A stretch of 55,436 nt of DNA from Alloascoidea hylecoeti (lineage: Eukaryota), in NCBI GenBank assembly GCA_001600815.1, contig BCKZ01000006.1, positions 869,048 through 924,483 of the forward strand, in the 5' to 3' direction. Under the pieces are notes generated by a model that did not search any database, was not told the DNA's origin, and saw only the letters and a list, made by a program, of their open reading frames with translations. Each line of letters begins with the position of its first letter. Position 1 is the stretch's first letter. The translations under genes and the position numbers were made by a program. Shown one piece after another: positions 18,592 to 36,630 of this stretch.

Positions 18592-21500
18592 CACTAATCA
18601 CTTTGTCACGAACTAAGTGTTCAACGAAAAACGAACGTGGATATGGATATTATTGAATCTAAAAGATACCCAAAATCAGAACTCCAAAGATTTAAATCCC
18701 GGTTAAGGATGCTATGTTTGTTTTATATGTTTTTACAGAAAATATCAATTATAAATTAAACATAGGATGTCATGAATTTATGTCCAAATTATGTACAACT
18801 TTATTTTTTAACTCATTTGAAAATATGCATATGGATAACGTCAAATAATATTTTTCCTCGAATTTCGGCGGGTGATTGAGAATGAGTAAAGAGTTTGTCG
18901 CAGAACATCGATATGTCGCTTCAGAACCGCCTGGCGGTACATCATATGCAAGATGAAATCTTGAGATGCATAAATGTATCCATGCATATTTCCGAATCTT
19001 TGCAATTTGGTATACGCATAGATTCGATCCGTTCATATAAAAATATTATTTAATATTGATTTGAATTTGAAAGTGAATGCATCATGATCAAAATATTGAT
19101 CTTCTACCGGTGTGACAGTCATTGGGACTATGATATTACTGGAAATAAACTATCATTAACAACTTATCAATATTTAAATAAAACTTGATGCACATTTGTG
19201 TGAAAACTGTAACTAGGACTGAGGGTTATGATTATTATACAAAACTAACTTTTTTCTTTAAATTTCGAAATTTCCAATTGCGGACAATACGGAGTCTATT
19301 TTTCTATTAATTAATAATTAAATTTTCTATAAGATTAATTTACACGAATTAATGTTCCAACTTTCAATATTTGCAATAGCTACCTGATTAATCGCAGCCG
19401 TGTATATATTTCAAGAGACTTTCCAAATATTATATGACAATAGATCTAGAATATCTCTAGTTGATAGTTGTTGTTGAAGATTAATAACTCGATTATGCTA
19501 TATTACTTAGTTTAAGCCAAATTATAAATAACATACATTTAGTATCATTTAGTAAATATTATATATACTTATAGTTGACTTATAATTAGATCAGTAGTTG
19601 CAGTTCTAGATATAAAAAAATACGCTTAATTCAATGCTTAAATAAGAGGGAGTCAATTATAAAACTATAAAATAAACAGCGTTGTGTCAATTGCAATTGC
19701 AATTGTTACCCATATTATTAATCAGATTACCAGTTCGAGAAAATCATACCGGTACCGGTAACTCTATATAATATAATATAATATAATATAATATAATGTA
19801 AGTAAGCAAGCTGATACAGACAAAAATATATATCAACTTCCATATTTATTATCTTATTGCTTTTTAATTAATAGTTTTTTATCGTCCATGGTATTCGAAT
19901 TCCTTTATCCTAACAAAAATGTATTACATTTATAAGATATTTTAAGTCTAACTTTTTATATAGGAATTCAATGAAAGTACCTCTAAACTGTATGTAGGAT
20001 ATAAAAACATATAAATGTCTAGAAAAACCATCTCAAATCTTCGAAACTATACACATATAACCTCATAGCAGTATCTACTTTATAAATCAGGATCCAGCTG
20101 TTGCCTACCTATATGATGATTCCGAAAGCTTATAGAGATTTTCTTTCTATTTCCCGGTTATGTACGATCGAATACAATTAAATATTCAGTTGCCAATTGC
20201 AATTACAATTACAATTCAGCTGAAGTAAGTCTACTATGGCCAATAATCATATATGAATCTGTGAAATCTCATGCTATTGCTAATATTAAAAATTGGATAT
20301 AGATCTAGAACTTATGATCAGCAGTTGGTAGAAATTTAATTATAAGATTGGCTAAGTTCATGAGTGATTATATATTTATGTCACATAAATGCTTAAGGTT
20401 AAGCTTATAAATAAGTATGAATTACAATTGTAAATTATAAATTACTAGTATAATTCTATGGCTAAATTTAAGTATGATTCTATATCAGAGTTAGTGCTTT
20501 ACCTCATAGTAGGCTCATACAATTGACAAATGACAACAATTAATGAGATCATAAACAACGGTTTCGGAGCGCGGCTCCATTGTTACGCCGATGTCATTGT
20601 AGCATGTACCTCGCTCGGCATGCAATGTATGCGGATGTCTCGGTTTTCGGCGGTTTCAGTGACAAATCAACTGCTTACATCGAAAGCTTCGCTGGCGGCA
20701 AAAAGAAAATTTTCATGTATGTCATATTCAAATAAGTGTGTAGTTGCGATGTTGTAGAATAATTATATTAATATTAATTCGCCATTAAATCACTAATTAT
20801 AATTATCTATAATTATTCCTATTATGCATATGCATATGCATATTCATTTCACCATAAATATAGCTATAGGATTTTCTTAAATTTAAAATATAGGTGAAAT
20901 TGTTAACATCTATTTCTATACAATACATTGATAGTTACTGGAGCTGGTTATTATGTGCGAATATTTATACAGTTTAATTTAGAAATGATTTGAATTGCTT
21001 TTGTTTAAGGTTCAACTTATTAAGGTGTAGGTTCCTACGCCAGGGGAAACCCGAAAATAAAATAATGCAGCGCTTAAAACTCACCTTCTTTTTAACCAAC
21101 CACCACCAAAAAAACCTCAATTCAAAAGTGGGAAAAGACAATCAATGTTTAAGATTACATAAGGCTTTTTTTGCGTGCAGCTGAACCCTAAAGTACTCCG
21201 TGCCAAGAACCCAAAATATTTCGCCGTTTAGGAATATAAGTTAATTAAATAAAACTCCTCCAATTGAAGAGTTTAATAAAACAAAATGAAAACTCTCTGT
21301 TTTCCAGTAAGATGAAATAGTAGAAAATGTCCACTAAGAAAATTTCCAAACGTGGCTACACTATTGATAGATAATTGTTTATGATTGTATATCCCAACGC
21401 GAGTTAATTCAAGTTTACACAGTTCGAAACGTTTGCAGATATCAATAACAGTGAATGAGCATTAAGCGAGAAACCAACGAGTTGCGGCTTTTTTAGATAG

Positions 21501-21674
21501 ATATGAAAAGATTTCTTACAAGCCGCCTAACTTTCTTGATCCTTATAGACTCTTGGCAAAGGATAAAATAGCATATAAAGCTGGTTCAAATGATACAAGT
21601 GACAAATATAAATACAAACCATGTAACTTTTTACAATGCGGAGAACACTAGCTAGTTGTATTTTTAGCGATGTC

Positions 21675-21767
21675 TGTTAAAGTTCAAAGTGCCTGTTCTC
21701 CCAGTTGCGCCAAAAAGCCAATCGACTCTTTAGTGAACTGTTCTAAGAGTGTAATATATATCCAACA
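21675..21767 (-). repeat. 3' LTR of the TRIM-like element
   Basis: 93 bp, identical base by base to 21958-22050. Confidence 0.95.
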
Positions 21768-21917
21768 CACCCCCCAACCTTAGGCAGGTCACTTTACTAA
21801 TCGCCATATCTGCTCACCCCCGTGATCTTGCGGGTTTCGGACTTCTTGCAGACTGACTCGGACATGCGTTACCCTACTAAGCCTCAACTAGACTGATGTA
21901 AACTACCGTCCTACGGC

Positions 21918-22043
21918 GGACTCGAACCTGATGCCTCTCGTGGCGGCGCCGCTACCATGTTAAAGTTCAAAGTGCCTGTTCTCCCAGTTGCGCCAAAAAG
22001 CCAATCGACTCTTTAGTGAACTGTTCTAAGAGTGTAATATATA
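21918..22043 (-). promoter_or_regulatory. Putative RNA polymerase III promoter in the TRIM-like element (TATA, A-box, B-box)
   Basis: TATATATT at 22043-22036; A-box TGGCGCAACTGG at 21995-21984 (fits TRGCNNARYNGG); B-box GGTTCGAGTCC at 21928-21918 (fits GGTTCGANNCC); 55 nt between the boxes. Confidence 0.6.
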
Positions 22044-22050
22044 TCCAACA
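21958..22050 (-). repeat. 5' LTR of the TRIM-like element
   Basis: 93 bp, TGTTGGATATATATT...CTTTAACA on the minus strand, immediately followed by the PBS. Confidence 0.95.
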
Positions 22051-22259
22051 ATGTCAAGAAGCCCTTAAAGGTGCTGATTCCAGTGGAGTTTCCGTCTATT
22101 CCTCACTCGATTCCTCTTCGAAAGGAACTTGACATATATGTTCAATGGGTGATTCCACTCTCTCCATGATTATTGTTATATCATAAAATGTCCAGGCTCG
22201 TTACTTGTTCACAAAGTGGTTATATATATTGAGAGGATCAAAACTGCTTTCACCCTTCC

Positions 22260-22285
22260 AAAAAAAAAAAAAAAAAAAAAAAAAA
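22260..22285 (+). repeat. Poly(A) tract, 26 nt
   Basis: Uninterrupted A run. Confidence 0.95.
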
Positions 22286-22559
22286 TTAGAAGATTCCCCC
22301 TCAACTTAAAAGAGGGTGAACAATCTTCAATAGTTTTCAAATTTAGAGGAGGAGAAACCTGCTGATTCACTAGAAATACACAAGTCACCTAGCATCAGGC
22401 AGAAGTCATACAAACGAGATAACAACGGATATTATATTTGTTTAAAATGGATTTTCAGTTTTCTTAATAGGATTAAACGGCTCTCACATACTGATTTATC
22501 TGCACCTATTAAGAAGATGAACCGAAATCAACCCAAAACGATTCAGAATAATTGGAGTA

Positions 22560-22930
22560 GGAACTATACACTGCCCTACAGTCCAATGCTGAAATGGATT
22601 CTCATATAACAAAGGTCAAAGGTATGAATTGGGGAGCTCTCAAAAATCCCCGATTAGCTTTCTGAATTGTGCACTAGGAACTAGTCGCGGGGGTAGTAAT
22701 GAAGAGTACTATACGGGTACAGGGAGTATTTGATCTCTATTGTCTCGTAAGAGGAACTTCTTAGGGAAAGACAGAAGATATAAATATAAAAGAGTACCTC
22801 ATGCCACTGACCAACAGAACAGGAAACGTAGGCAGATTGTGATGCAAACACACACTCCAAATGAAGGTCTCTCCGAAGAAGAAAGACTTAAAAACTGTAG
22901 AATACATTGAGGGTAATAAAGAGAATATAC
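22560..22930 (+). pseudogene. Possible degenerate Ty3/gypsy pol (RNase H) relic
   Basis: Across frameshifts, peptides NYTLPY, KSPISFL, EEYYTGT/EYLISIV, NFLGK, ATDQQN and TVEYIEGNKEN occur in the order of gypsy RNase H motifs. Confidence 0.35.
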
Positions 22931-24010
22931 AATGTTAAGTAAAATTTATATTTACATTCTTTAGTTTTCAATTGTTCATTGTGGTGAGATTTTTGGTTGG
23001 GTGGTTCAGAAGGTGTGTCCAAACTAAATTGAAGTCGCCCTATAGATTCCAAGAAGCTTCCAATTAAGAATCCTATGACTAATTATTGGTAGTTTTCCTT
23101 TTTAAATTCAAAATAAAAACTATGGTGCATCGCATTTGGGCATTTGCTAATATAAAACACTAAAATATTATGAATCACCAACAACATGGTCAATTGTAGT
23201 GTTACTTGAATACAAGTATTCTCAATTACATGGAAAAGATGAATCAACACATAACAATCGATAGCTGGTTATATTAATTAGATAGAATTATATAAGGGTT
23301 GTATTTTTATTGGTTTAAATAATGCAGTTAACCCAAAAATAAGTGTTTACTAAAACAACAAAAGAAAAAATCCACTTGAATTCACTAGATATTTTGTATA
23401 GATAAATTACTTATCCCTAATACATTCTACTAACATAATGTATCCATTCTTCTATTAACGTTTTCAGTTCAAAGTTGGAGAGTTTCCTGTTCTTTTTTAC
23501 CATATTTTCCATCGGCATTATTGTTATTTAACTAAATTTATTACTTAATTAGACATTTTATACGTTGTCCCACAATTATGAGTTTGACGCTTTAAATTGC
23601 GATGAAAAAAGTAACTTGAGCTTACTAATTTAAAGCTTACTATATGGTAGATAAAAATTCTTTTTTATTTTATTGCAAGTTTAAAATAGTAATAAATAAA
23701 ATTTTAAGAGTACTAACTATATATTTATTTTACTTTTAACAACTTTTCAATTACAAATTCGAATTGTACCTTTCTAATCAAACATGAAGGCTTAAATTTA
23801 TATATTTAACTCAATTACGCTTTTTATAATTTAGTTATTATGTGGGTATTTATTCAGAATTAATTGTACACATTGTCCTAAAATAGATAAAAGAGATTTG
23901 ATATCATATTTTATAGGATTAAGATCGTTTACAACTTTTCTTTCATCATAAATTCTATTAAAACTATCTTTATACTAAACACGTTAGTACCCAATATGTC
24001 TAAACAGCTA

Positions 24011-24200
24011 AACTTGATTCGTAAACCAGTTGTAAATATATTGAGACACTATTGTATTATATTGTAATAAGAAGAATTAGACCAGATGTATTAAAGAAAT
24101 TTATATCTTATTTATCTCAACTACTGAACTTGATTCGTAGAGCAGCTATAAATAAATGGTGATATACTTGTATTATGTTGTATATTGGATAAGAAGTTAA
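24011..24200. repeat. Degenerate direct duplication, period about 116 bp
   Basis: AACTTGATTCGTA...TTGTATTAT(A/G)TTGTA...TAAGAAG starts at both 24011 and 24127. Confidence 0.65.
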
Positions 24201-25047
24201 TTGAATGGTTATCTTTAGAAAGAGGCGAACATAAGCTATTTAAATGAGTAAAATGAGGTTTAAACTTTAAAACACGCTGACAATAAACAAGTCATAAATA
24301 TAGTTTCGTACTAATGAGTTATACATATAAACCTAAAAGGCCGATAGGTAAGTATGTTGTTACTAAAACGAAATACACAATTGACCGTAGAAAACTCAAT
24401 GGGGGGAATTTTTAATTATCTACTATATCTGATATTAATACATTAAATTTTGGGGCACTTTAACTTATAATTATCATCAATGTTTCAATGGATATATTTA
24501 CATATATAACAGCTGAAATTGAGGCCAAAACGTTTGAGAATAAGTTAATATTATATTATATATTGTAAATTTCACTGTGGTGATTTCCCTTAGCATTCTA
24601 CAACTAGTATTAAAAATTATGATCTCTATAATAGACATTAACGTTAATATCAATACATGTACAATCAGAAAAAGTTTATAACTAGATCTAGTACAACTAC
24701 TATTAGTAAATATAAATAAATCTATAAGTTCATCATAAATTTCTGATGAATAGTATCAGCAAGTGATTTGATTTGTGTATTAACCGGATCCACTGTTGAT
24801 GTCCTGAGTTCGATCAGTAATTATTAAAGCTTATACTGAAAGATGAAGTTAAAGACCAGAAATATCTGTTGATTATAATTCGAATTACTATGTTAACAAA
24901 ACAGGAATGTGATAATCTGTAAAACAAAAACAATCTACATACTATGGACAACTATAAACTTTATTAACATAAAACTCTCCTTATAAATCAAATCAAATCC
25001 TATCTAGTTTAATCTTAATCTTATAGTAAAATAAGTTTAATTAAACA

Positions 25048-25340
25048 TGTTATTAAATCTGTCGTATGATGATGAAGCAAGAAGGTTCCATACTATGAAT
25101 TTCTGGTGTGTCGTCTGCTGAGTGTTTACTCACTGTACTCACTATTCACTCCTCAGTCTAGCAGTGCATTCATGTACATCATTTTTAACAAGCGTTTTCG
25201 TAAACTTTATTTTCCTTTTGACAGCTGCAAGCCTGCAACCTTAAACCTGCTTAGTCATAGGAAAAATCGAAGAATAAATAAATATAAATACAACTCAATA
25301 TTATTGTATCTTCGCGAAGAGGAACGCATGTATGTTAACA
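25048..25340 (+). mobile_element. Candidate old solo LTR
   Basis: About 293 bp bounded by TGTTA...TAACA, GC-richer than its flanks, AATAAA near the 3' end; no TSD found. Confidence 0.25.
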
Positions 25341-25544
25341 TATATAATTTCAAGCTTATTTACAATTGCTGTTAAACGATATGTTAATATTTATCTACTA
25401 ATAATATAAATTTTCATTCCGCAAACATGCATATGTTTAATTTACGTATACCTGAGATTGTTTCTTTGATTTTAATTTTACTTGAAGTACTTATGCCGTG
25501 TATATATTTCGACTCTAAGAACTCATCGCACTCTATATCTCCTG

Positions 25545-25690
25545 TAGCTTGGTTACCGGATGATCCAGTGGAATGGAAATCCCGAATCATAAATGAAAGC
25601 CATGGCCATATCACCGCCATCCACCTGCAGACATATTATCCAGATGGCTGGACTGTGCGGCAACACAAGGGCATATTAAACTTAAGGTCC
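25545..25690 (+). pseudogene. Possible retrotransposon integrase zinc-binding (HHCC) domain relic
   Basis: LPDDPVEWKSRIINESHGHITAIHLQTYY resembles the gypsy integrase pattern P.D.E.R.RII.E.HD...AGH...TY. Confidence 0.3.
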
Positions 25691-28600
25691 AGGTTTCAGG
25701 TTACCGTAACTTTGTTAGACTAGTAAGTATAGACGATGCTACCTAAACTATAGATCTTAAATTCTAAATCCTGTTGCTTTATTTGATATAGTACAACATA
25801 CATATAGTATAAAATTGCTATACGAGATTGCAGACTATATAAAGAGTAGATATTCCCTTTTAATAAAACTTATCGGCTATCAGCCAATAGCTATTCAACT
25901 ACAAAAATGGTGTCGAGAGATATTTTTGAAATTGGATATTTTGTGTTTAGTATTAGTAGTTTGTTATAATAAAAGTTATTACAACAATCCTGACCTATAA
26001 AATGAAGGCAGACCCCTTATACGGGTAGTTAAAGAAACGTCCGTTACCAACGGACACCTTTTTCTACCGTCGTATCCAATTAACAATACTATGATTAATA
26101 TAATATAATTAATATAGAATATAATTAATATTGCCACCAAACCTGAATACTCTGTATATGGCACTTGGCAAATCATCATACACGATACAACTAATAAAAT
26201 TTTATAACAATGGACCAAAGAAACTAGGTTGAAGAGTAGGCCTAGGTGGAAACTTGAAATTGAAGTCATAATCACTATACGTATGCATATTTAATCTCAT
26301 GCAAACTGGATACAAAGAAGTTGAAAGAACTGGTAATAAATTACTAATAATCATATTAATTATATATTATTTCAACTTATTAGATTGATAAAAGTTAATC
26401 CTTGTAATTGGTATATTATTTGAATTTTACGTTATCGTTATGATTGTAATTGGTATTGTTTATGATATTGATTGTTCGTTTGCGTACGTTGCGCCCGTAC
26501 ACGTGGCTGTGTGTAAGTATCAGCTAAAACATGTTAACTGTTTGATTGTTGAGGTTCGGTACGAAGTTGGTATAGGGCTCTTTGTTAGTTAGTTCTAGTT
26601 TTATTTATAAGGCTTATATTAATTGGCTAGACATAAGTTACATGCCTTATTGATGTCAATTACAAACTATACCTGTGCTCCACAAGCGCTTTCAACCATT
26701 TAATATAAACTTTATAAATCACTTATAAAGACAGAGAAAGAGAAAATTAAGCATACGAAGTTATGAACACATAGAACACATAGAACACAATCACAATTAT
26801 AAACATATTTACCCAAGTGCCGGTCTTGAACAAAAATATAACATTATATACTGTATTTAGGCTATAATCTAGATGATTAAGTCCAGCAAGCATAAGGGAA
26901 ATGCGGTGTGTACGAGCAAATTAAAGAAAAAAGAGGTAACTATATAACTAGCTTACAGATAATTTACAATTATAATTATTATATCGGTTTAAAAGCCCAT
27001 AGGGTTCAGATACTCAACCGCTATCGCAGTTATCGGTCTGATCATGAGAAATCATAATTATAACATTAATTAGTAACAGTTATTACGACAAAAAGCGATC
27101 GCGAGTTGCCATAATATATACCAATGCATATAATAAATATTGAGATATTGAGAAGAGAGGATTCTATATATGTGAAATTGTTATAATTTTACAGAGGGTA
27201 ATGGAGAGAAAAGAGTGTGTACCACTGTGCAGGCTCGCATGTTGGTTTTATTTTTCTATAGGCCTAGCTATAGAGTGACGTTAACAATAAAATATATATA
27301 GTAATTAACACAATTCAATACAAATTCACAGCAAAGTGTACGTTCACAACATCCTCCTGAGTCCAAACACAAACATTCTTGAATACTCTCTTACAAAATC
27401 AAATATTCCTTAATTGTTCTGCTAACGGAATGTTTGAAAATTCATTAATAAACCATTTAAAAGATGGTAGGCTTAAGCCCGGGAGGGATTAAGTTGTATT
27501 TTCGGACAGATCTATAGCTAGATAAAACCGATCATTGTGGCAGGAAAAATATGCGACGTTTAATTAATAAATATTGTGTGATTTAGAAGGTGCGCATAAC
27601 TTTTTTAATCAGCCTCGGAATTGAAAACTTAATAAAAAAGCTCAACTGTTATTGTAGGCTTAGTAAATATAAATCATAAGCCTAAGAAAGAATTAGATCT
27701 ATATAGTGATATCAGTTGTTCTTATAATTAGCTTTCGATTGATTTTAAATTTCGTTCGATTTTAATTTTTCTCTTTACTCTTGCTTTTAAAAGAGTGATT
27801 GAAATCAATGGATTATTATTAAGTTATATCAGCACTTGAAAATAGAATTGTCAAATCAAACTATAAAGCATGGTGATACTGATATACTCCTGTGTATCAT
27901 AATTATTATAATTTCTCTAAGCCTTGGGTAATAATAGGAAATGTGTTAAACCTGGGTAAGTATAGTATTTGGCAGTATCTTATACCCTATATACTAGATC
28001 AACACAAATCTAAAACTGTTTATCCCTAACTCGCGAGTCAGTGGTGGCTAAGCTAAGCCTTAGGTAGGGAGAATCAAAACAAATTAGCCTCAGGTAGATA
28101 CTGCAAGATTAATCAAGATATCTTAGCTATTGATTATGATAGTTCATGGGATACTGCAAATATATATATTATGAATTGAATATCAATCCTGTCTCAAAGT
28201 GCATCGAACATCTGCAAGCGATGAATACGGGCGCGTTTATACATAATTATCAATATTGAACATTCTGAATTTCTGAATATTAGATACCAGATAGTAGATA
28301 TACAAAACAAGAGTAATAAAATTTCAAAGGATGTAAGCACTGGTCAGAGAACAATATATCTCCATTTCGACAGCGGGGTTTTTCGGCAATGAAAAGGTAT
28401 GAAAATCCAAAGTTTAAAGAGTATGTAACCAAGAAGTTTTCCCCTTCAGAATCCGATATGAAAAAATGTTGACGCAATATTAATACGTTCTACATGATTA
28501 TATCAATATTAATTTATATGTCAGATTCTAATATTAATTAATATATATATATATATATATATGTATAAGCTTATACATTCCCAGTTCATACCTTATAAAT

Positions 28601-29975
28601 AAGCTAAATAGCGCGCTATAGGCATAATTGTAGGCGATTCTTTTGATCTTCACTATAATTTGTGTAATTCAATCATTTCAATGTCGTTGTATTCTTACAA
28701 TACACAGTATTAATAGAGACGATATGACCCATATATATAACTATTCCTTGATACAACAAAATTTTTGAGCTCAATTGCAATATTGAGAGAGATTATATAA
28801 ACAGTCGAACAGTGAAATTGTACTGTTTATATAGCATTTGAAATAATTATTCTTATTAATTATTAAATAGGGTTCACGCAGTTGTAGATTAATCTAGGTT
28901 GTATACGCACATATGCTTTCCAATCTACTTTGTAGATTTCAATTTTTGAGATTGTCTAACATTTTCAATTATATGCTGATATGAGATCTTTTTTAGACTT
29001 CTGAAGGGGTGATGATTCTGGCAGTAGTGTATTAACCTTAACTCTAAGTTGTTCTTCATTGCTGTATGCAATAATAAATATTTTCATATTACATAGAGTA
29101 AACACATGGGGACAATTATTCAACTCAATTAATATAATTTTATATTATAATAACTATGTTTTGAAGCAAAAGTCTGCCTTCAACGAATAATATGAGTAAT
29201 TTTAGAAACAAATGTTGTAATTGTCAGGTCATCAGCATTAGCCGGAATTATAATTATAATTTAACAATTTAAGCTTTTCCCAAATCATCGATATTATGGA
29301 GTAGGGCTTAAGGTTACAAAATTTGGAAAAATGGAAATGCCAAACTTTTGGAGTAGTTTGGTAAGATAAAAAGGAAAAATATGAAAAGAGAATCATGGAT
29401 TGTGTAAGACCTTGCAAATACAATTAGTGCCTGTAATTAGTAGTAAAGAGTAGAGATACTCAAGGATGAGGGGTAGTGAAGATATCGATATATAACATTT
29501 ATGAAAAGTTTTACTGTAAATTTTTACTAGTCTTATATTTTAAGCCGCCGAATAGCATAAACCGGAACCGTCCAGCAAAAGCAAGCATACAATCGTCCCC
29601 GTGCGAACATCAAAGGAGATCTAGAGTTCGTGAGATGAGTTGTGAGATGAGTCCTGAGATGAGGGAAATGCTATGAGGATAAGACTGTAAAATAAGGGTT
29701 GCCTGAGCAGAAACCTCATGATCAAGTAAGTTATCAGCTGTAGTGAAAAAGCAATGAAAACGCTCAGAGGGAGGCATAATGTTTGTGGAGTTGGGATTAA
29801 CATTTGACGGTTTCCGGGGCATTAGACCTTGGGCTTTTGTTTAAAAATAGAATTTCTCCCTATTTAGTCAAAAGTTGCAGCACTACTTTTTCTGCTTTTT
29901 TCCTGCCTTCTCTCTGCTTTAGCACTCTTTACTACTCCATTCTCTCGCTTATCGTCCGCTGGTTCAGGTAGTAGG

Positions 29976-34253: not shown

Positions 34254-35084
34254 GGTATTTGTTCATTATTATTTTCAAAATTGAGGTTAATCCCTAGTTG
34301 CAGATTAATTTCCCAACATTAAACATATAATTGTCTACTTCATTTCGTTTTAGTTTAAAAAAGAAAACACTTTTTACCTTGTCTTTAAATAAATGCAATG
34401 TATTAAACTGAAAAGAAATAGATTATTAATCAATCGAATCACGTATATTATTATTATGAAAAATTATCTAATGTTGCGTTTCTATTTTTCTCTCTTTTAA
34501 TAAAAGAAAGTTATAGGTTCATATATACCCCTATAGCGCTATAGGCCTATGCAATAACAGCTACTTTACTTTATTAAGTATTTTAAGCATTTTTAGTTGA
34601 GATTGGGATCCCTGAGGAAGTAGCTTGTTTGCAATATTCTCATCAAGTAGTTGTGATTTGAATTTGAGAATCATATATCATTTAATTAAAATTAATTTAG
34701 TTTTTAAAATCGCAATTGATTTTCATTTCAATACTACCAACGTTAAGGTGGAATTTGGTCTATGTATACTAATTTGCTGAATACCGTTCATTGTCTTTAT
34801 TTCACAATGATTGAAAATAGGATCCTCTGTTTCTATTCCTGGTTAAGTTGTAAGCAAACTTGCATTTATTAACATTTCAATGAACCATTTAAATATTTTT
34901 TTTTACGATTTAAGTTCCTAGTGACATGAATACCGGTAATGTAATAATAGATAATCTGTGAATAAAATCTTCTGTTCCAGGGGTTTTCTTACAGGTAAAA
35001 GAATTTGTACTATTTCAACGACTCCGTCGTGGAGACCCATGGATTTTTTTCCTTCCTTGTGGTCACAAAAGAACAAAACAAAAA

Positions 35085-35157
35085 TGCCTCAAGTCGGATT
35101 CGAACCAACGATCTTAACATTACTAGTGTTACGCCTTACCAACTTGGCCATCAAGGC
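35085..35157 (-). tRNA. tRNA-Thr (anticodon AGT), intronless
   Basis: GCCTTGATGGCCAAGTTGGTAAGGCGTAACACTAGTAATGTTAAGATCGTTGGTTCGAATCCGACTTGAGGCA folds as a cloverleaf; anticodon stem TAACA/TGTTA; followed by a T-run terminator. Confidence 0.97.
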
Positions 35158-36630
35158 AATGTCCTACTACTGCTCAGGAACGCATTATTGACTATTCTTG
35201 GTTATGAGTTCTTTCGTTTTTATTACATTTTATTAGTCCTTTGTTACATTTAATACTTCTTTTGACTATTCTATAAATATATTTTGGATTTATCTATATA
35301 AAGCTAAGATAAATCCCTCTTTAAATAGATAACTTAATTCACTAGTTCGAATACACATATTATCTTAATAAGCCATTGCAGCTGATTCCGTCAGTTACTT
35401 TACAATTCCAGGAAGTAAATTGTACTGTGGTGAAGGTTAGTAACTTGGGTGTCCAGCTTTATTCAGAAAATGATAGGTTAAAGATAAAGAGGGGTTGAAT
35501 GTCCACAGTGACTCACACTGTTGTCTTACTAAAGTAAGACTTCGTCCCCGAATAGGATTTCCTCCTAAACTAAAAAAAGTCGATGCTCCTACGCAAACAT
35601 TGCAATTGCAAAGTGGTGCGCATGTCGAATTAGCTACCACCTTTAATTGATTAAGACCCAGGTTCGATTCTGACATTTGGGACACCCAAATAGTCGCATA
35701 GAGACTGCCATACTTGAAATTACTTCTTCGTTAACTTCATTATTCTTGTTGAAGTGCCTTCATTATGTTCTGCGGATTTTTGGAGTATTCCTATCTAATA
35801 TTTAGGATCGGTTATCAGTTTATCTTCTATACGGTATATTAATTACTAGTTATATGATTATTGGTTATCTCAGTTCGTAACATGATTGTTTTAGACAGGT
35901 TCCATCTTTACTAGAACATCATAGCCTCGGACAGATCTATTACATAGGTCAGTCTTCAAATCTTCTTTTCCGGTATGATTAGCTCTAGAGATAAACATAC
36001 AATCTTTTCATCTATTTTTGACGATGTTTTCGACAAATAGTAGCGAAAAATTAGATAGTAGTGGCTAAATATGCAAACAAATAAGCTTATAAAAAGTAAT
36101 CATCAAGTATTCACTTCATTTTATAGGTGCATAACTCGATGTGTAGTGAAGAAAGTCGCCTCACACATACAAAAAAAGCATCACATGTTAATAACAGATT
36201 TTGCACCTCCTGAATTCATTTAGAATTCGAAATAATTGAGCTGATAAAGATTTGGGGTGATAAAGATACGATGCTTTTTTCCCCAAATATTAATTGGGAA
36301 ATTATGAATGGCTCTATTTAAAGACAAACTATTATATTAATGGCTAGTTCCTCGATAAAATATATGTTAAGCAGAGCCTGAGAAGATATATTTATTATTA
36401 ACAAAAGAATAACCCCCATTCTTCGAGCCAAATTTGGTCCACTCAAGGATATTCTTCTGGACGAATGTAATTGCAAAGTCAAGGGTTGAATGCTTTTTAC
36501 TCTAATTGTTCTGTGTTTAAGTTGATGTTAGTTGATATAATTAAGAAGAAAAAAGCAGTTGGATTATTTGAATGTATTATGACATAGTATAAAAGAATTA
36601 AAGAATTTATATGTTGCTAATTAATTATAG

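What the first reader, a model, noticed from the sequence alone, without database searches (positions are those of the whole stretch)
21918..22050. The miniature retroelement appears to carry its own RNA polymerase III promoter spanning the LTR-PBS junction
Seen on the element strand: TATATATT at LTR position 8, a consensus A-box TGGCGCAACTGG at LTR position 56, and a consensus B-box GGTTCGAGTCC 55 nt further on, just past the PBS. The only T-run of 4 or more in the element is T5 at LTR positions 52-56. Established knowledge: yeast SNR6 has TATA near -30 and an A-box near +20, matching the 48-nt TATA-to-A-box offset here. Inference: Pol III would start near LTR position 38 and could terminate at the T5 of the 3' LTR, giving an ~300-nt RNA with a short R redundancy. 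Only the 5' LTR has a B-box behind it, which would restrict promoter activity to that LTR. This would be a tRNA-type Pol III-driven LTR parasite, analogous to but distinct from 5S-carrying Cassandra TRIMs. Caveat: the T5 in the 5' LTR must be read through.
Basis: partly seen in the sequence, partly recalled or inferred. Interest (0 to 1): 0.92.

Follow-up and report, generated by a model that had tools for sequence, protein, structure and literature searches.

The report
Mini retroelement with Pol III boxes
A 376-base non-coding jumping gene in a yeast-like fungus carries, in the right order and spacing, the sequence signals that normally drive tRNA-type (RNA polymerase III) transcription; this fits a recently described class of such parasites, but nobody has yet shown that the signals are used.

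Summary
On the minus strand, 22050-21675 is an intact 376-nt terminal-repeat retrotransposon in miniature (TRIM). It has identical 93-nt LTRs, a 5-bp target duplication, a PBS and a PPT. The B-box pattern has only one other match in the 55-kb window, inside the real tRNA-Thr gene. A and B boxes in the right order and spacing arose in 2 of 200,000 shuffles of the element. The family is recently active: contig depth suggests roughly 18-26 near-identical copies, and one metagenome holds the empty site.

The Pol III reading is coherent but unproven (confidence 0.45). The geometry matches SNR6. The T5 would give an R of about 20 nt, against 18 nt in Cassandra. That predicted R folds as a hairpin.

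Against it:
- No RNA run holds the stretch.
- There is no tRNA-like fold.
- The copies are too alike to test conservation.
- The same T5G motif ends the window's own tRNA gene.

The idea is less new than claimed. tRNA-type Pol III TRIMs (Helenus, "TRIMp3") were described in 2024. Two things differ here: the promoter is split across the LTR/PBS junction, and the host is an ascomycete.

The parts
21675..22050 (-). Whole 376-nt non-autonomous LTR element (TRIM): LTR, PBS, 190-nt non-coding internal region, PPT, LTR
   Evidence: No ORF beyond 15 codons. An empty-site contig in run X3 joins 21669 to 22051.
21958..22050 (-). 5' LTR, 93 nt, starts TGTTGG and ends AACA
   Evidence: 100% identical to the 3' LTR.
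21675..21767 (-). 3' LTR, 93 nt
22051..22055 (-). 5' copy of the 5-bp target-site duplication GACAT
   Evidence: flanks. In one search the joint shows 5 letters that fit both sides.
21670..21674 (-). 3' copy of the target-site duplication GACAT
22036..22043 (-). TATATATT (LTR positions 8-15): candidate TFIIIB/TBP site about 30 nt upstream of the predicted start. Equally a candidate Pol II TATA box.
   Evidence: The (TA)n length varies among copies: 2 nt are left out at 21754 in 4-7 contigs per run.
21995..22014 (-). Predicted R region (el 37-56), running from the predicted Pol III start to the end of T5. Self-complementary hairpin AAAGAGUC/GGCUUUUU.
   Evidence: Fold of -5.2 kcal/mol, z -4.3, 0 of 200 shuffles as good. 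The boundaries are inferred, not measured.
21995..21999 (-). T5 in the 5' LTR, followed by G: a weak Pol III terminator that must be read through
   Evidence: The same T5G follows the window's tRNA-Thr gene.
21712..21716 (-). T5 in the 3' LTR: proposed termination site of the roughly 302-nt RNA
   Evidence: The function is inference.
21984..21995 (-). A box TGGCGCAACTGG (LTR positions 56-67). It fits the tRNA invariant positions 8-21.
   Evidence: It lies in the LTR bins with the highest summed contig depth.
21950..21957 (-). PBS core TGGTAGCG directly after the LTR. It overlaps a 10-nt palindrome at 21943-21952.
   Evidence: The assignment to initiator tRNA-Met is recalled knowledge, not tested here.
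21918..21928 (-). B box GGTTCGAGTCC (el 123-133), a full match to GGTTCGANTCC
   Evidence: Unchanged in the major multi-copy contig and in the one diverged copy.
21768..21781 (-). Polypurine tract region AAGGTTGGGGGGTG directly before the 3' LTR
21863..21864 (-). Site where the major family variant carries 20 extra nt. The window copy is the rare short form.
   Evidence: table 4: contig depth with the insertion is 1537.7 in X1, 142.7 in X4, 184.6 in X3 and 9.13 in X5.

Best explanation
The element is a recently active miniature LTR retrotransposon. Its 5' part carries a split type-2 (tRNA-type) RNA polymerase III promoter.

Proposed mechanism:
1. TFIIIC binds the B box just past the PBS and the A box in U5.
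2. TFIIIC, helped by the TATATATT 48 nt upstream of the A box, places TFIIIB.
3. Pol III starts near LTR position 37.
4. Part of the polymerase reads through the weak T5 at +16 to +20.
5. It then copies U5, the PBS, the T-run-free internal region, the PPT and the U3 of the 3' LTR.
6. It stops at the T5 of the 3' LTR. The RNA is about 302 nt, or about 322 nt in the major variant, with a terminal redundancy (R) of about 20 nt.
7. That RNA is reverse-transcribed and integrated in trans by an unknown autonomous Ty1/copia-like element.

A box, PBS and B box all lie downstream of the start, so the promoter travels with the RNA. Only the 5' LTR has a B box behind it, so only that LTR fires.

Shown: the element's anatomy, the motifs and their geometry, their non-randomness, and multi-copy recent mobility. 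Inferred: every transcriptional step.
For: - Exact A and B boxes lie in the correct order with a 55-nt gap. This arose in 2 of 200,000 shuffles. The B-box pattern is otherwise found only in the window's tRNA-Thr gene.
- The TATA-to-A-box offset of 48 nt matches SNR6: TATA at -30, box A at +21 (PMC2667510).
- The single T5 lies between the predicted start and the A box. That gives an R of about 20 nt, like the 18-nt duplication of Cassandra RNA. Cassandra LTRs also hold both promoter and terminator.
- In S. cerevisiae T5 is the minimal terminator, and T6 is needed for efficient termination (PMC9278858). Partial read-through is therefore expected.
- The a priori predicted R (el 37-56) folds as a complete hairpin, z -4.3, 0 of 200 shuffles as good.
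- U3 would be only 36 nt, with just 7 nt upstream of the TATA. That leaves little room for a Pol II upstream promoter (sequence).
- The boxes are perfect while no cloverleaf exists. This is the pattern used to argue function for Helenus.
- The B box is unchanged in a contig about 26, 18 and 20 times as deep as the single-copy flank contig in X1, X4 and X3. These are rough ratios, table 8.
- The B box is also unchanged in the one diverged copy, which has 7 listed substitutions between 21863 and 21945 and none in 21918-21928.
- A diverged LTR subfamily keeps the T5/A-box part while its upstream part differs (loose end at 21998, 1 contig in each of X1, X4 and X3).
Against: - There is no expression or occupancy evidence of any kind.
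- The T5G in the LTR is the same signal that directly follows the window's own tRNA-Thr gene. It may therefore terminate well in this species, only 15-19 nt after the predicted start.
- Conservation is nearly uninformative. The copies are almost identical. An intact 11-nt B box in one copy at about 8% divergence is expected about 40% of the time (my estimate).
- One LTR variant in X3 lacks the 5' half of the A box (loose end at 21988, 1 contig).
- LTR sequence is far more abundant than the B-box-bearing internal part (table 2). Most LTR copies thus have no B box, and the LTR may be shared with a Pol II-driven autonomous element that I could not retrieve.
- The absence of other T runs follows from base composition.
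- A Pol II reading is also coherent. By recalled knowledge, TATATA serves in yeast both as a TATA box and as a polyadenylation efficiency element.
Confidence: 0.45

Rival explanations
1. It is an ordinary Pol II-transcribed TRIM. The TATATATT in U3 is the Pol II TATA box and, in the 3' LTR RNA, part of the polyadenylation signal. The A- and B-box matches play no part in transcription.
For: - Most TRIMs are assumed to be Pol II-driven, and the autonomous partners must be (PMC10886601 discussion).
- The LTR is much more abundant than the B-box-bearing internal region, so it spreads or persists without a B box.
- T5G probably terminates Pol III in this species.
- No tRNA-like fold was found.
Against: - It leaves unexplained the joint occurrence of perfect A and B boxes in the right order and spacing (2 of 200,000 shuffles), with the TATA and the T5 in the slots a Pol III unit needs (p about 0.04 and 0.06).
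- With only 7 nt upstream of the TATA there is no room in U3 for upstream activating sequences.
- In budding yeasts Pol II usually starts 40-120 nt downstream of the TATA (recalled). That would squeeze R into the last 45 nt of the LTR.
Confidence: 0.28
2. The boxes do bind TFIIIC, with or without TFIIIB, but not to make the transposition template. They act like an 'extra TFIIIC' site: a chromatin boundary, a nucleosome-free landing pad, or a beacon for integration by Pol III-targeting relatives.
For: - The motif evidence is the same as for the main reading.
- Yeast Ty elements are known to target Pol III complexes (PMC6101501, search listing and abstract only).
- No further LTR copy lies in this 55-kb window, although LTR sequence reaches high summed contig depth in the runs laid. 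That could mean the copies are clustered.
Against: - It does not explain why the T5 and the TATA sit in the slots that define a start and an R.
- This copy is 13 kb from the nearest Pol III gene.
- Clustering was not shown.
Confidence: 0.1
3. The boxes are a by-product of tRNA-related sequence. They could be a relic of a tRNA or tRNA-derived insertion in the U5-leader region. They could also be leader segments that evolved to pair with the primer tRNA, like the extra tRNA-pairing boxes of Ty1 and Ty3 (recalled). Either way they have no promoter role today.
For: - Both boxes coincide with the invariant tRNA positions (sequence).
- They flank the PBS.
- Kojima proposes that TRIMp3 families arise by insertion of a tRNA-derived SINE into a TRIM.
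Against: - The boxes are in the sense orientation, whereas pairing with, or read-through copying of, the primer would give antisense sequence.
- Nothing else of a tRNA survives: ARAGORN finds nothing at 80% of its threshold or above, Rfam finds nothing, and there is no similarity to tRNA-Thr beyond the B box.
- A decaying relic should not keep two perfect boxes.
- Complementarity to the primer tRNA was not tested, because no initiator tRNA sequence was available from any tool.
Confidence: 0.12
4. Pure coincidence in a scan of very many windows.
For: The scan covers about 250,000 windows (tool text), so events of 1 in 100,000 per element can turn up.
Against: The joint probability is about 1e-5. 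It is then multiplied by the TATA and T5 slot probabilities of 0.04 and 0.06 and by the a priori R hairpin (0 of 200 shuffles).
Confidence: 0.05

Closest known systems
Helenus (tRNA-type TRIMp3; Kojima 2024, PMC10886601)
   Same: - Tiny non-coding LTR element with a PBS and a PPT.
- 5-bp TSD, as in fungal Helenus.
- Its 376 nt falls inside the 311-1263 bp range.
- Conserved tRNA-type A and B boxes without a functional tRNA.
- Presumed mobilisation by a Copia-type element.
   Different: - In Helenus the whole tRNA-like segment, both boxes included, lies inside the LTR, so both LTRs carry it. Here the A box is in U5 and the B box lies 30 nt beyond the LTR, past the PBS.
- No tRNA-like sequence is detectable beyond the two boxes.
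- The host is an ascomycete. Helenus in fungi is listed only for Pucciniales and a few Agaricomycetes.
- The PBS matches a tRNA 3' end. Most fungal Helenus pair with an anticodon loop.
Cassandra (5S-type TRIM; the only validated TRIMp3)
   Same: - Pol III internal promoter and a T-run terminator within the LTR.
- The RNA starts in the 5' LTR and ends in the 3' LTR with a very short terminal duplication: 18 nt in Cassandra, about 20 nt predicted here.
- The terminator in the 5' LTR must be read through.
   Different: - Cassandra has a type-1 (5S; box A, IE, box C) promoter lying wholly in the LTR. Here no 5S similarity was found (Rfam).
- Cassandra occurs in plants and is 565-860 bp long.
S. 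cerevisiae SNR6 (U6) promoter
   Same: Upstream TATA at about -30, an intragenic A box at about +20, and a B box separated from the A box.
   Different: - In SNR6 the B box lies downstream of the terminator, at +233. Here it is 55 nt after the A box and inside the transcript.
- SNR6 is a cellular gene, not a mobile element.
tRNA-derived SINEs
   Same: An internal A/B-box promoter is carried along in the RNA. The element is a short non-coding parasite of an autonomous retroelement.
   Different: - SINEs are mobilised by LINEs through target-primed reverse transcription.
- SINEs lack LTRs, a PBS and a PPT. This element has all three.
Ordinary TRIMs / SMART elements (TRIMp2)
   Same: Size, structure, lack of coding capacity, TSD.
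   Different: No Pol III boxes have been reported in them. They are presumed to use Pol II.

Membership tests
TRIM (terminal-repeat retrotransposon in miniature) | Two short direct terminal repeats starting TG and ending CA | tested here: met
   93-nt LTRs, 100% identical, TGTTGG...AACA.
TRIM (terminal-repeat retrotransposon in miniature) | PBS next to the 5' LTR and PPT next to the 3' LTR | tested here: met
   TGGTAGCG at 21957-21950 and AAGGTTGGGGGGTG at 21781-21768. The identity of the primer tRNA is recalled, not tested.
TRIM (terminal-repeat retrotransposon in miniature) | Target-site duplication and evidence of insertion | tested here: met
   GACAT on both sides. An empty-site contig in X3 skips 381 nt, with 5 shared letters.
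TRIM (terminal-repeat retrotransposon in miniature) | No coding capacity, total length well under 1 kb | tested here: met
   376 nt. The longest ORF from the junction ATG is 15 codons.
TRIMp3 (TRIM with a Pol III promoter) | Sequence elements of a Pol III promoter conserved in the element | tested here: met
   A box and B box are full consensus matches in the right order.
TRIMp3 (TRIM with a Pol III promoter) | Transcription by Pol III from that promoter | not testable with these tools
   No RNA data could be laid on the element. This needs RACE or Northern blots, ChIP and mutants.
TRIMp3 (TRIM with a Pol III promoter) | Boxes conserved across copies or families more than neighbouring sequence | tested here: inconclusive
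   The major contig is identical across copies. The one diverged copy keeps the B box. One X3 LTR variant lacks half the A box.
Helenus | tRNA-derived sequence with both boxes inside the LTR | tested here: not met
   The B box is at el 123-133, outside the 93-nt LTR. ARAGORN and Rfam see no tRNA-like sequence.
Cassandra | 5S rRNA-derived sequence in the LTR | tested here: not met
   No 5S hit in an Rfam E-value search of 21000-23000, nor in a gathering-threshold search of the whole window.
tRNA gene or pseudogene | Cloverleaf with acceptor, D, anticodon and T stems | tested here: not met
   ARAGORN finds 0 genes at its default, relaxed and 80% thresholds. At 60% it gives a poor 98-nt model over el 48-145, alongside 4 other junk models in 551 nt.
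Type-2 Pol III promoter | A-to-B box spacing within the range TFIIIC tolerates | tested here: met
   The gap is 55 nt. The tolerated range of about 30-90 nt is recalled knowledge, not taken from a call.

The most novel reading that the evidence does not exclude
This is the first Pol III-driven LTR retroelement of an ascomycete yeast, and a new architecture within TRIMp3. It has a minimal, SINE-like internal promoter split by the LTR/PBS junction: A box in U5, B box behind the PBS. As a result only the 5' LTR fires. A weak T5 terminator both defines a self-complementary R of about 20 nt and is read through at the 5' end because the nascent RNA there is too short to fold.
Probability: 0.4. Interest if true: 0.72.

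Novelty: new variant of a known kind. Interest (0 to 1): 0.58.

Why it matters
- Only one lineage of Pol III-transcribed LTR retroelements (Cassandra, in plants) has transcript evidence. Helenus and Ajax rest on sequence alone.
- A small, recently active family of this type in a yeast would be a tractable system. One could ask how an uncapped, non-polyadenylated Pol III RNA is packaged, primed and reverse-transcribed by a Ty-like machinery.
- It could also show how a terminator is ignored at one LTR and used at the other, and how LTR elements acquire SINE-style promoters.
- The split arrangement would escape screens that look for tRNA similarity inside LTRs. Such elements may therefore be under-counted.
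- If the boxes are not used, the case is a useful warning that perfect A/B boxes can occur without Pol III function.

Tried and rejected
- **Whole genome:** none is held for this window. All-copy alignment and a search for the autonomous partner were therefore impossible.
- **Collection scans:** exact-pattern scans with an LTR/PBS junction stretch found 0 loci in metagenome contigs. Scans with an LTR core stretch found 0 loci in metagenome, viral and prokaryote genome contigs.
- **Other copies in the window:** BLAST and nhmmer found none.
- **RNA runs:** no RNA holder was listed among the 11 runs offered; 6 hold the stretch, all DNA. Expression could not be examined.
- **Rfam and ARAGORN:** Rfam found nothing in or near the element. 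ARAGORN found nothing at usable thresholds.
- **Similarity to tRNA-Thr:** only the 12-nt B-box segment matches. The score of 19 was reached by 19 of 500 shuffles.
- **A 3'-LTR-specific hairpin that could boost the T5** (idea from PMC9278858): candidate stems exist 2-8 nt upstream of the T5 and use bases upstream of the predicted start. They are weak, at -4.3 kcal/mol, and 163 of 200 shuffles fold as well. This is not evidence.
- **Structure of the predicted 302-nt RNA:** z -2.05, with 2 of 100 shuffles as good. Much of this comes from R pairing with R.
- **Decayed retroelement genes in the ORF-poor flank:** 0 Pfam families in 20 of 20 stop-to-stop ORFs tested, out of 47 listed.
- **Earlier findings of the scan:** none for this genome or sequence. 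One note from another genome, on a springtail TRIM with an A-box-like segment, was judged there to be a mere 12-base resemblance.
- **Complementarity of the leader to the primer initiator tRNA:** not tested, because no such tRNA sequence was obtainable from a tool.
- **Literature:** searches of the held library found no report of a Pol III-type TRIM in Saccharomycotina, nor of a promoter split across the LTR/PBS junction. Supplementary tables of PMC10886601, which list the families, were not opened.

Full report
**What is there**

Read on the minus strand, window 22050-21675 is a complete 376-nt LTR element.
- It has two identical 93-nt LTRs, TGTTGG...AACA.
- It is flanked by the 5-bp duplication GACAT.
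- A PBS, TGGTAGCG, sits directly after the 5' LTR.
- A purine tract ending in GGGGGGTG sits directly before the 3' LTR.
- The internal region is 190 nt and 56% G+C, in a window of 34% G+C.
- It has no coding capacity beyond a 15-codon ORF that starts at the ATG formed by the LTR/PBS junction.
- The neighbouring permease gene groups with Ascomycota proteins, so the host is a yeast-like ascomycete.

**The observation**

- TATATATT is at LTR positions 8-15.
- T5 is at positions 52-56.
- The A box TGGCGCAACTGG is at positions 56-67.
- The B box GGTTCGAGTCC is at element positions 123-133. That is 55 nt after the A box and 30 nt after the LTR end.
- The T5 and its 3'-LTR copy are the only T runs of 4 or more.
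- No B box follows the 3' LTR.

The motif set is not chance.
- The B-box pattern occurs twice in the window against 0.03 expected. The other match lies inside the real tRNA-Thr gene at 35084-35158.
- The A-box pattern alone is common: 8 matches against 5.75 expected.
- In 200,000 shuffles of the element's 283 unique bases, a sense-strand B box arose 47 times. A correctly placed A-plus-B pair arose twice.
- A TATA motif and a T5+ run in the slots a Pol III unit needs have window-based probabilities of about 0.04 and 0.06.
- The 'no other T run' argument is weak. Given the element's own composition, the probability of having none is about 0.57.

**It is not a tRNA**
- Rfam gives nothing at or near the element.
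- ARAGORN gives nothing at its default, relaxed or 80% thresholds.
- At the 60% threshold ARAGORN draws a poor 98-nt cloverleaf over el 48-145, alongside four other junk models in the same 551 nt.
- Similarity to the window's tRNA-Thr is limited to the B box.

So two perfect boxes stand without the rest of a tRNA.

**The family**

No genome is held. Four collection scans found no other copy. Six public DNA runs hold the stretch and no RNA run does. I laid the contigs of 4 of these runs.

*Copy number and variants*
- One contig covers the LTR end, the PBS and the B-box leader (21837-21972) with no substitutions.
- Its depth against the single-copy flank contig is 1537.7 to 59.8 in X1, 142.7 to 8.14 in X4 and 184.6 to 9.13 in X3. 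As a rough ratio that is about 26, 18 and 20 copies.
- This major form carries 20 extra nt behind 21863, so the window copy is a rare short variant.
- LTR bins reach far higher summed depths. Overlapping short contigs inflate those sums, so I read them only as 'many more LTRs than internal regions'.

*Recent insertion*
- A 1052-nt contig in metagenome run X3 joins 21669 to 22051, with 5 letters fitting both sides.
- That is the empty site, so this insertion is polymorphic and recent.

*Conservation, as far as it could be seen*
- One diverged single-copy contig has 15 differences and 11 gap positions over 21803-21990. Seven substitutions are listed between 21863 and 21945. None falls in the B box, and two fall in the palindrome next to the PBS. 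At that divergence an intact B box is expected about 40% of the time, so this is weak.
- A diverged LTR subfamily keeps the T5/A-box part while the sequence upstream differs (1 contig in each of 3 runs).
- One X3 variant lacks the 5' half of the A box.
- Overall, conservation neither confirms nor refutes function.

**How it would work**

The geometry fits a Pol III unit.
- SNR6 has its TATA at -30, box A at +21 and a separate box B (PMC2667510, passages). Here the TATA-to-A-box offset is 48 nt.
- Both the TATA and the A box therefore point to a start near LTR position 37.
Any Pol III-driven LTR element needs a terminator downstream of its start inside the LTR, because start and stop together define R.
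- Cassandra LTRs carry both the promoter and the terminator. Its RNA has an 18-nt terminal duplication (PMC7215508 and PMC10886601, passages). Here R would be about 20 nt.
- In S. cerevisiae T5 is the minimal terminator, and six Ts are needed for efficient termination. Nearby RNA structure boosts weak T tracts (PMC9278858, passages and one section). Partial read-through at the 5' LTR is therefore plausible.
- Taken a priori, the predicted R (el 37-56) folds end to end as a hairpin, z -4.3, with 0 of 200 shuffles as good.
- In the predicted 302-nt RNA the two R copies pair with each other.
- A box, PBS and B box all lie downstream of the start. The promoter would therefore be inherited through the RNA, as in SINEs, and only the 5' LTR context would be active.

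**What speaks against it**
- No RNA, cap, poly(A) or occupancy data exist.
- The window's own tRNA-Thr gene is followed directly by the same T5G, then by two T4 runs. T5G is thus probably a working terminator in this species.
- I found no convincing 3'-LTR-specific structure that would explain differential use. Candidate stems are no better than shuffles.
- Most LTR copies lack a B box.
- The autonomous partner, and whether it shares this LTR and leader, is unknown.
- A Pol II reading is also self-consistent. By recalled knowledge, TATATA acts in yeast both as a TATA box and as a polyadenylation efficiency element. It does leave the box pair unexplained.
- A primer-tRNA-pairing origin of the leader could not be tested, for want of the initiator tRNA sequence.

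**Comparison with what is known**
- Kojima (2024, PMC10886601; I read the abstract, results 3.1-3.6, the discussion, the legends and the tables) described Helenus and the umbrella class TRIMp3.
- Helenus elements are TRIMs with tRNA-type A and B boxes in their LTRs. They occur in Pucciniales, a few Agaricomycetes, animals and Selaginella.
- Only Cassandra has transcript evidence.
- This element meets the TRIM criteria and the sequence criterion of TRIMp3.
- It fails the Helenus definition, because the B box lies outside the LTR and no tRNA-like segment is present. It fails the Cassandra definition, because there is no 5S sequence.
- No ascomycete appears in Kojima's Table 1.
- Six searches of the held library found no report of such an element in budding yeasts, or of a promoter split by the LTR/PBS junction.
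- I did not open that paper's supplementary family tables.

**Verdict**
It is a coherent, statistically non-random design with close precedents, but every transcriptional step is inferred.
- I put 0.45 on a working Pol III promoter that makes the transposition template.
- I put 0.28 on an ordinary Pol II TRIM, and the rest on TFIIIC binding without template function, a tRNA-related by-product, or chance.
- If true, it is a new variant of a known kind, in a tractable host.

Noticed in passing
window 21863/21864: The window's copy lacks 20 nt that the major family variant carries. Contig depth with the extra 20 nt is about 26 times the flank in X1. The short form appears to be present in only one or two copies.
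   Followed up: partly
window 21669-22051: A contig in a wood-decay metagenome run (X3) holds the empty target site with a single GACAT. The two isolate runs (X1, X4) hold the filled site. The insertion is therefore polymorphic.
   Followed up: partly
window 21943-21952 (element 99-108): A perfect 10-nt G+C palindrome overlaps the 3' part of the PBS. It could be a dimerisation or hairpin site. Its right half is changed at two positions in the one diverged copy.
   Followed up: no
window 18592-29975: An 11.4-kb stretch has no ORF of 120 aa or more and is 22-45% G+C. It contains an A30 run near 22262-22291. No Pfam match was found in 20 stop-to-stop ORFs tested. It may be a gene desert or a centromere-like region, and the element sits inside it.
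   Followed up: partly
window 23973-24066 and 24089-24182: Two adjacent 94-nt direct repeats, 71% identical and 22 nt apart, of unknown nature.
   Followed up: no
window 35020-35158 (minus strand): tRNA-Thr(AGT) gene. Its 3' end is followed at once by TTTTTG, then by two T4 runs. This is a weak primary terminator with back-ups, and the only native Pol III gene in the window.
   Followed up: yes
window 21519-21614: In three runs a second contig, at about the same depth as the flank contig, matches this 96-nt flank segment with 16 differences. It suggests a diverged allele or a paralogous copy of the flank.
   Followed up: no
window 21913-21958 (element 93-138): The ATG formed by the LTR end plus the PBS opens a 15-codon ORF that runs through the B box. 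It could be a remnant of a parent element's gag start.
   Followed up: no
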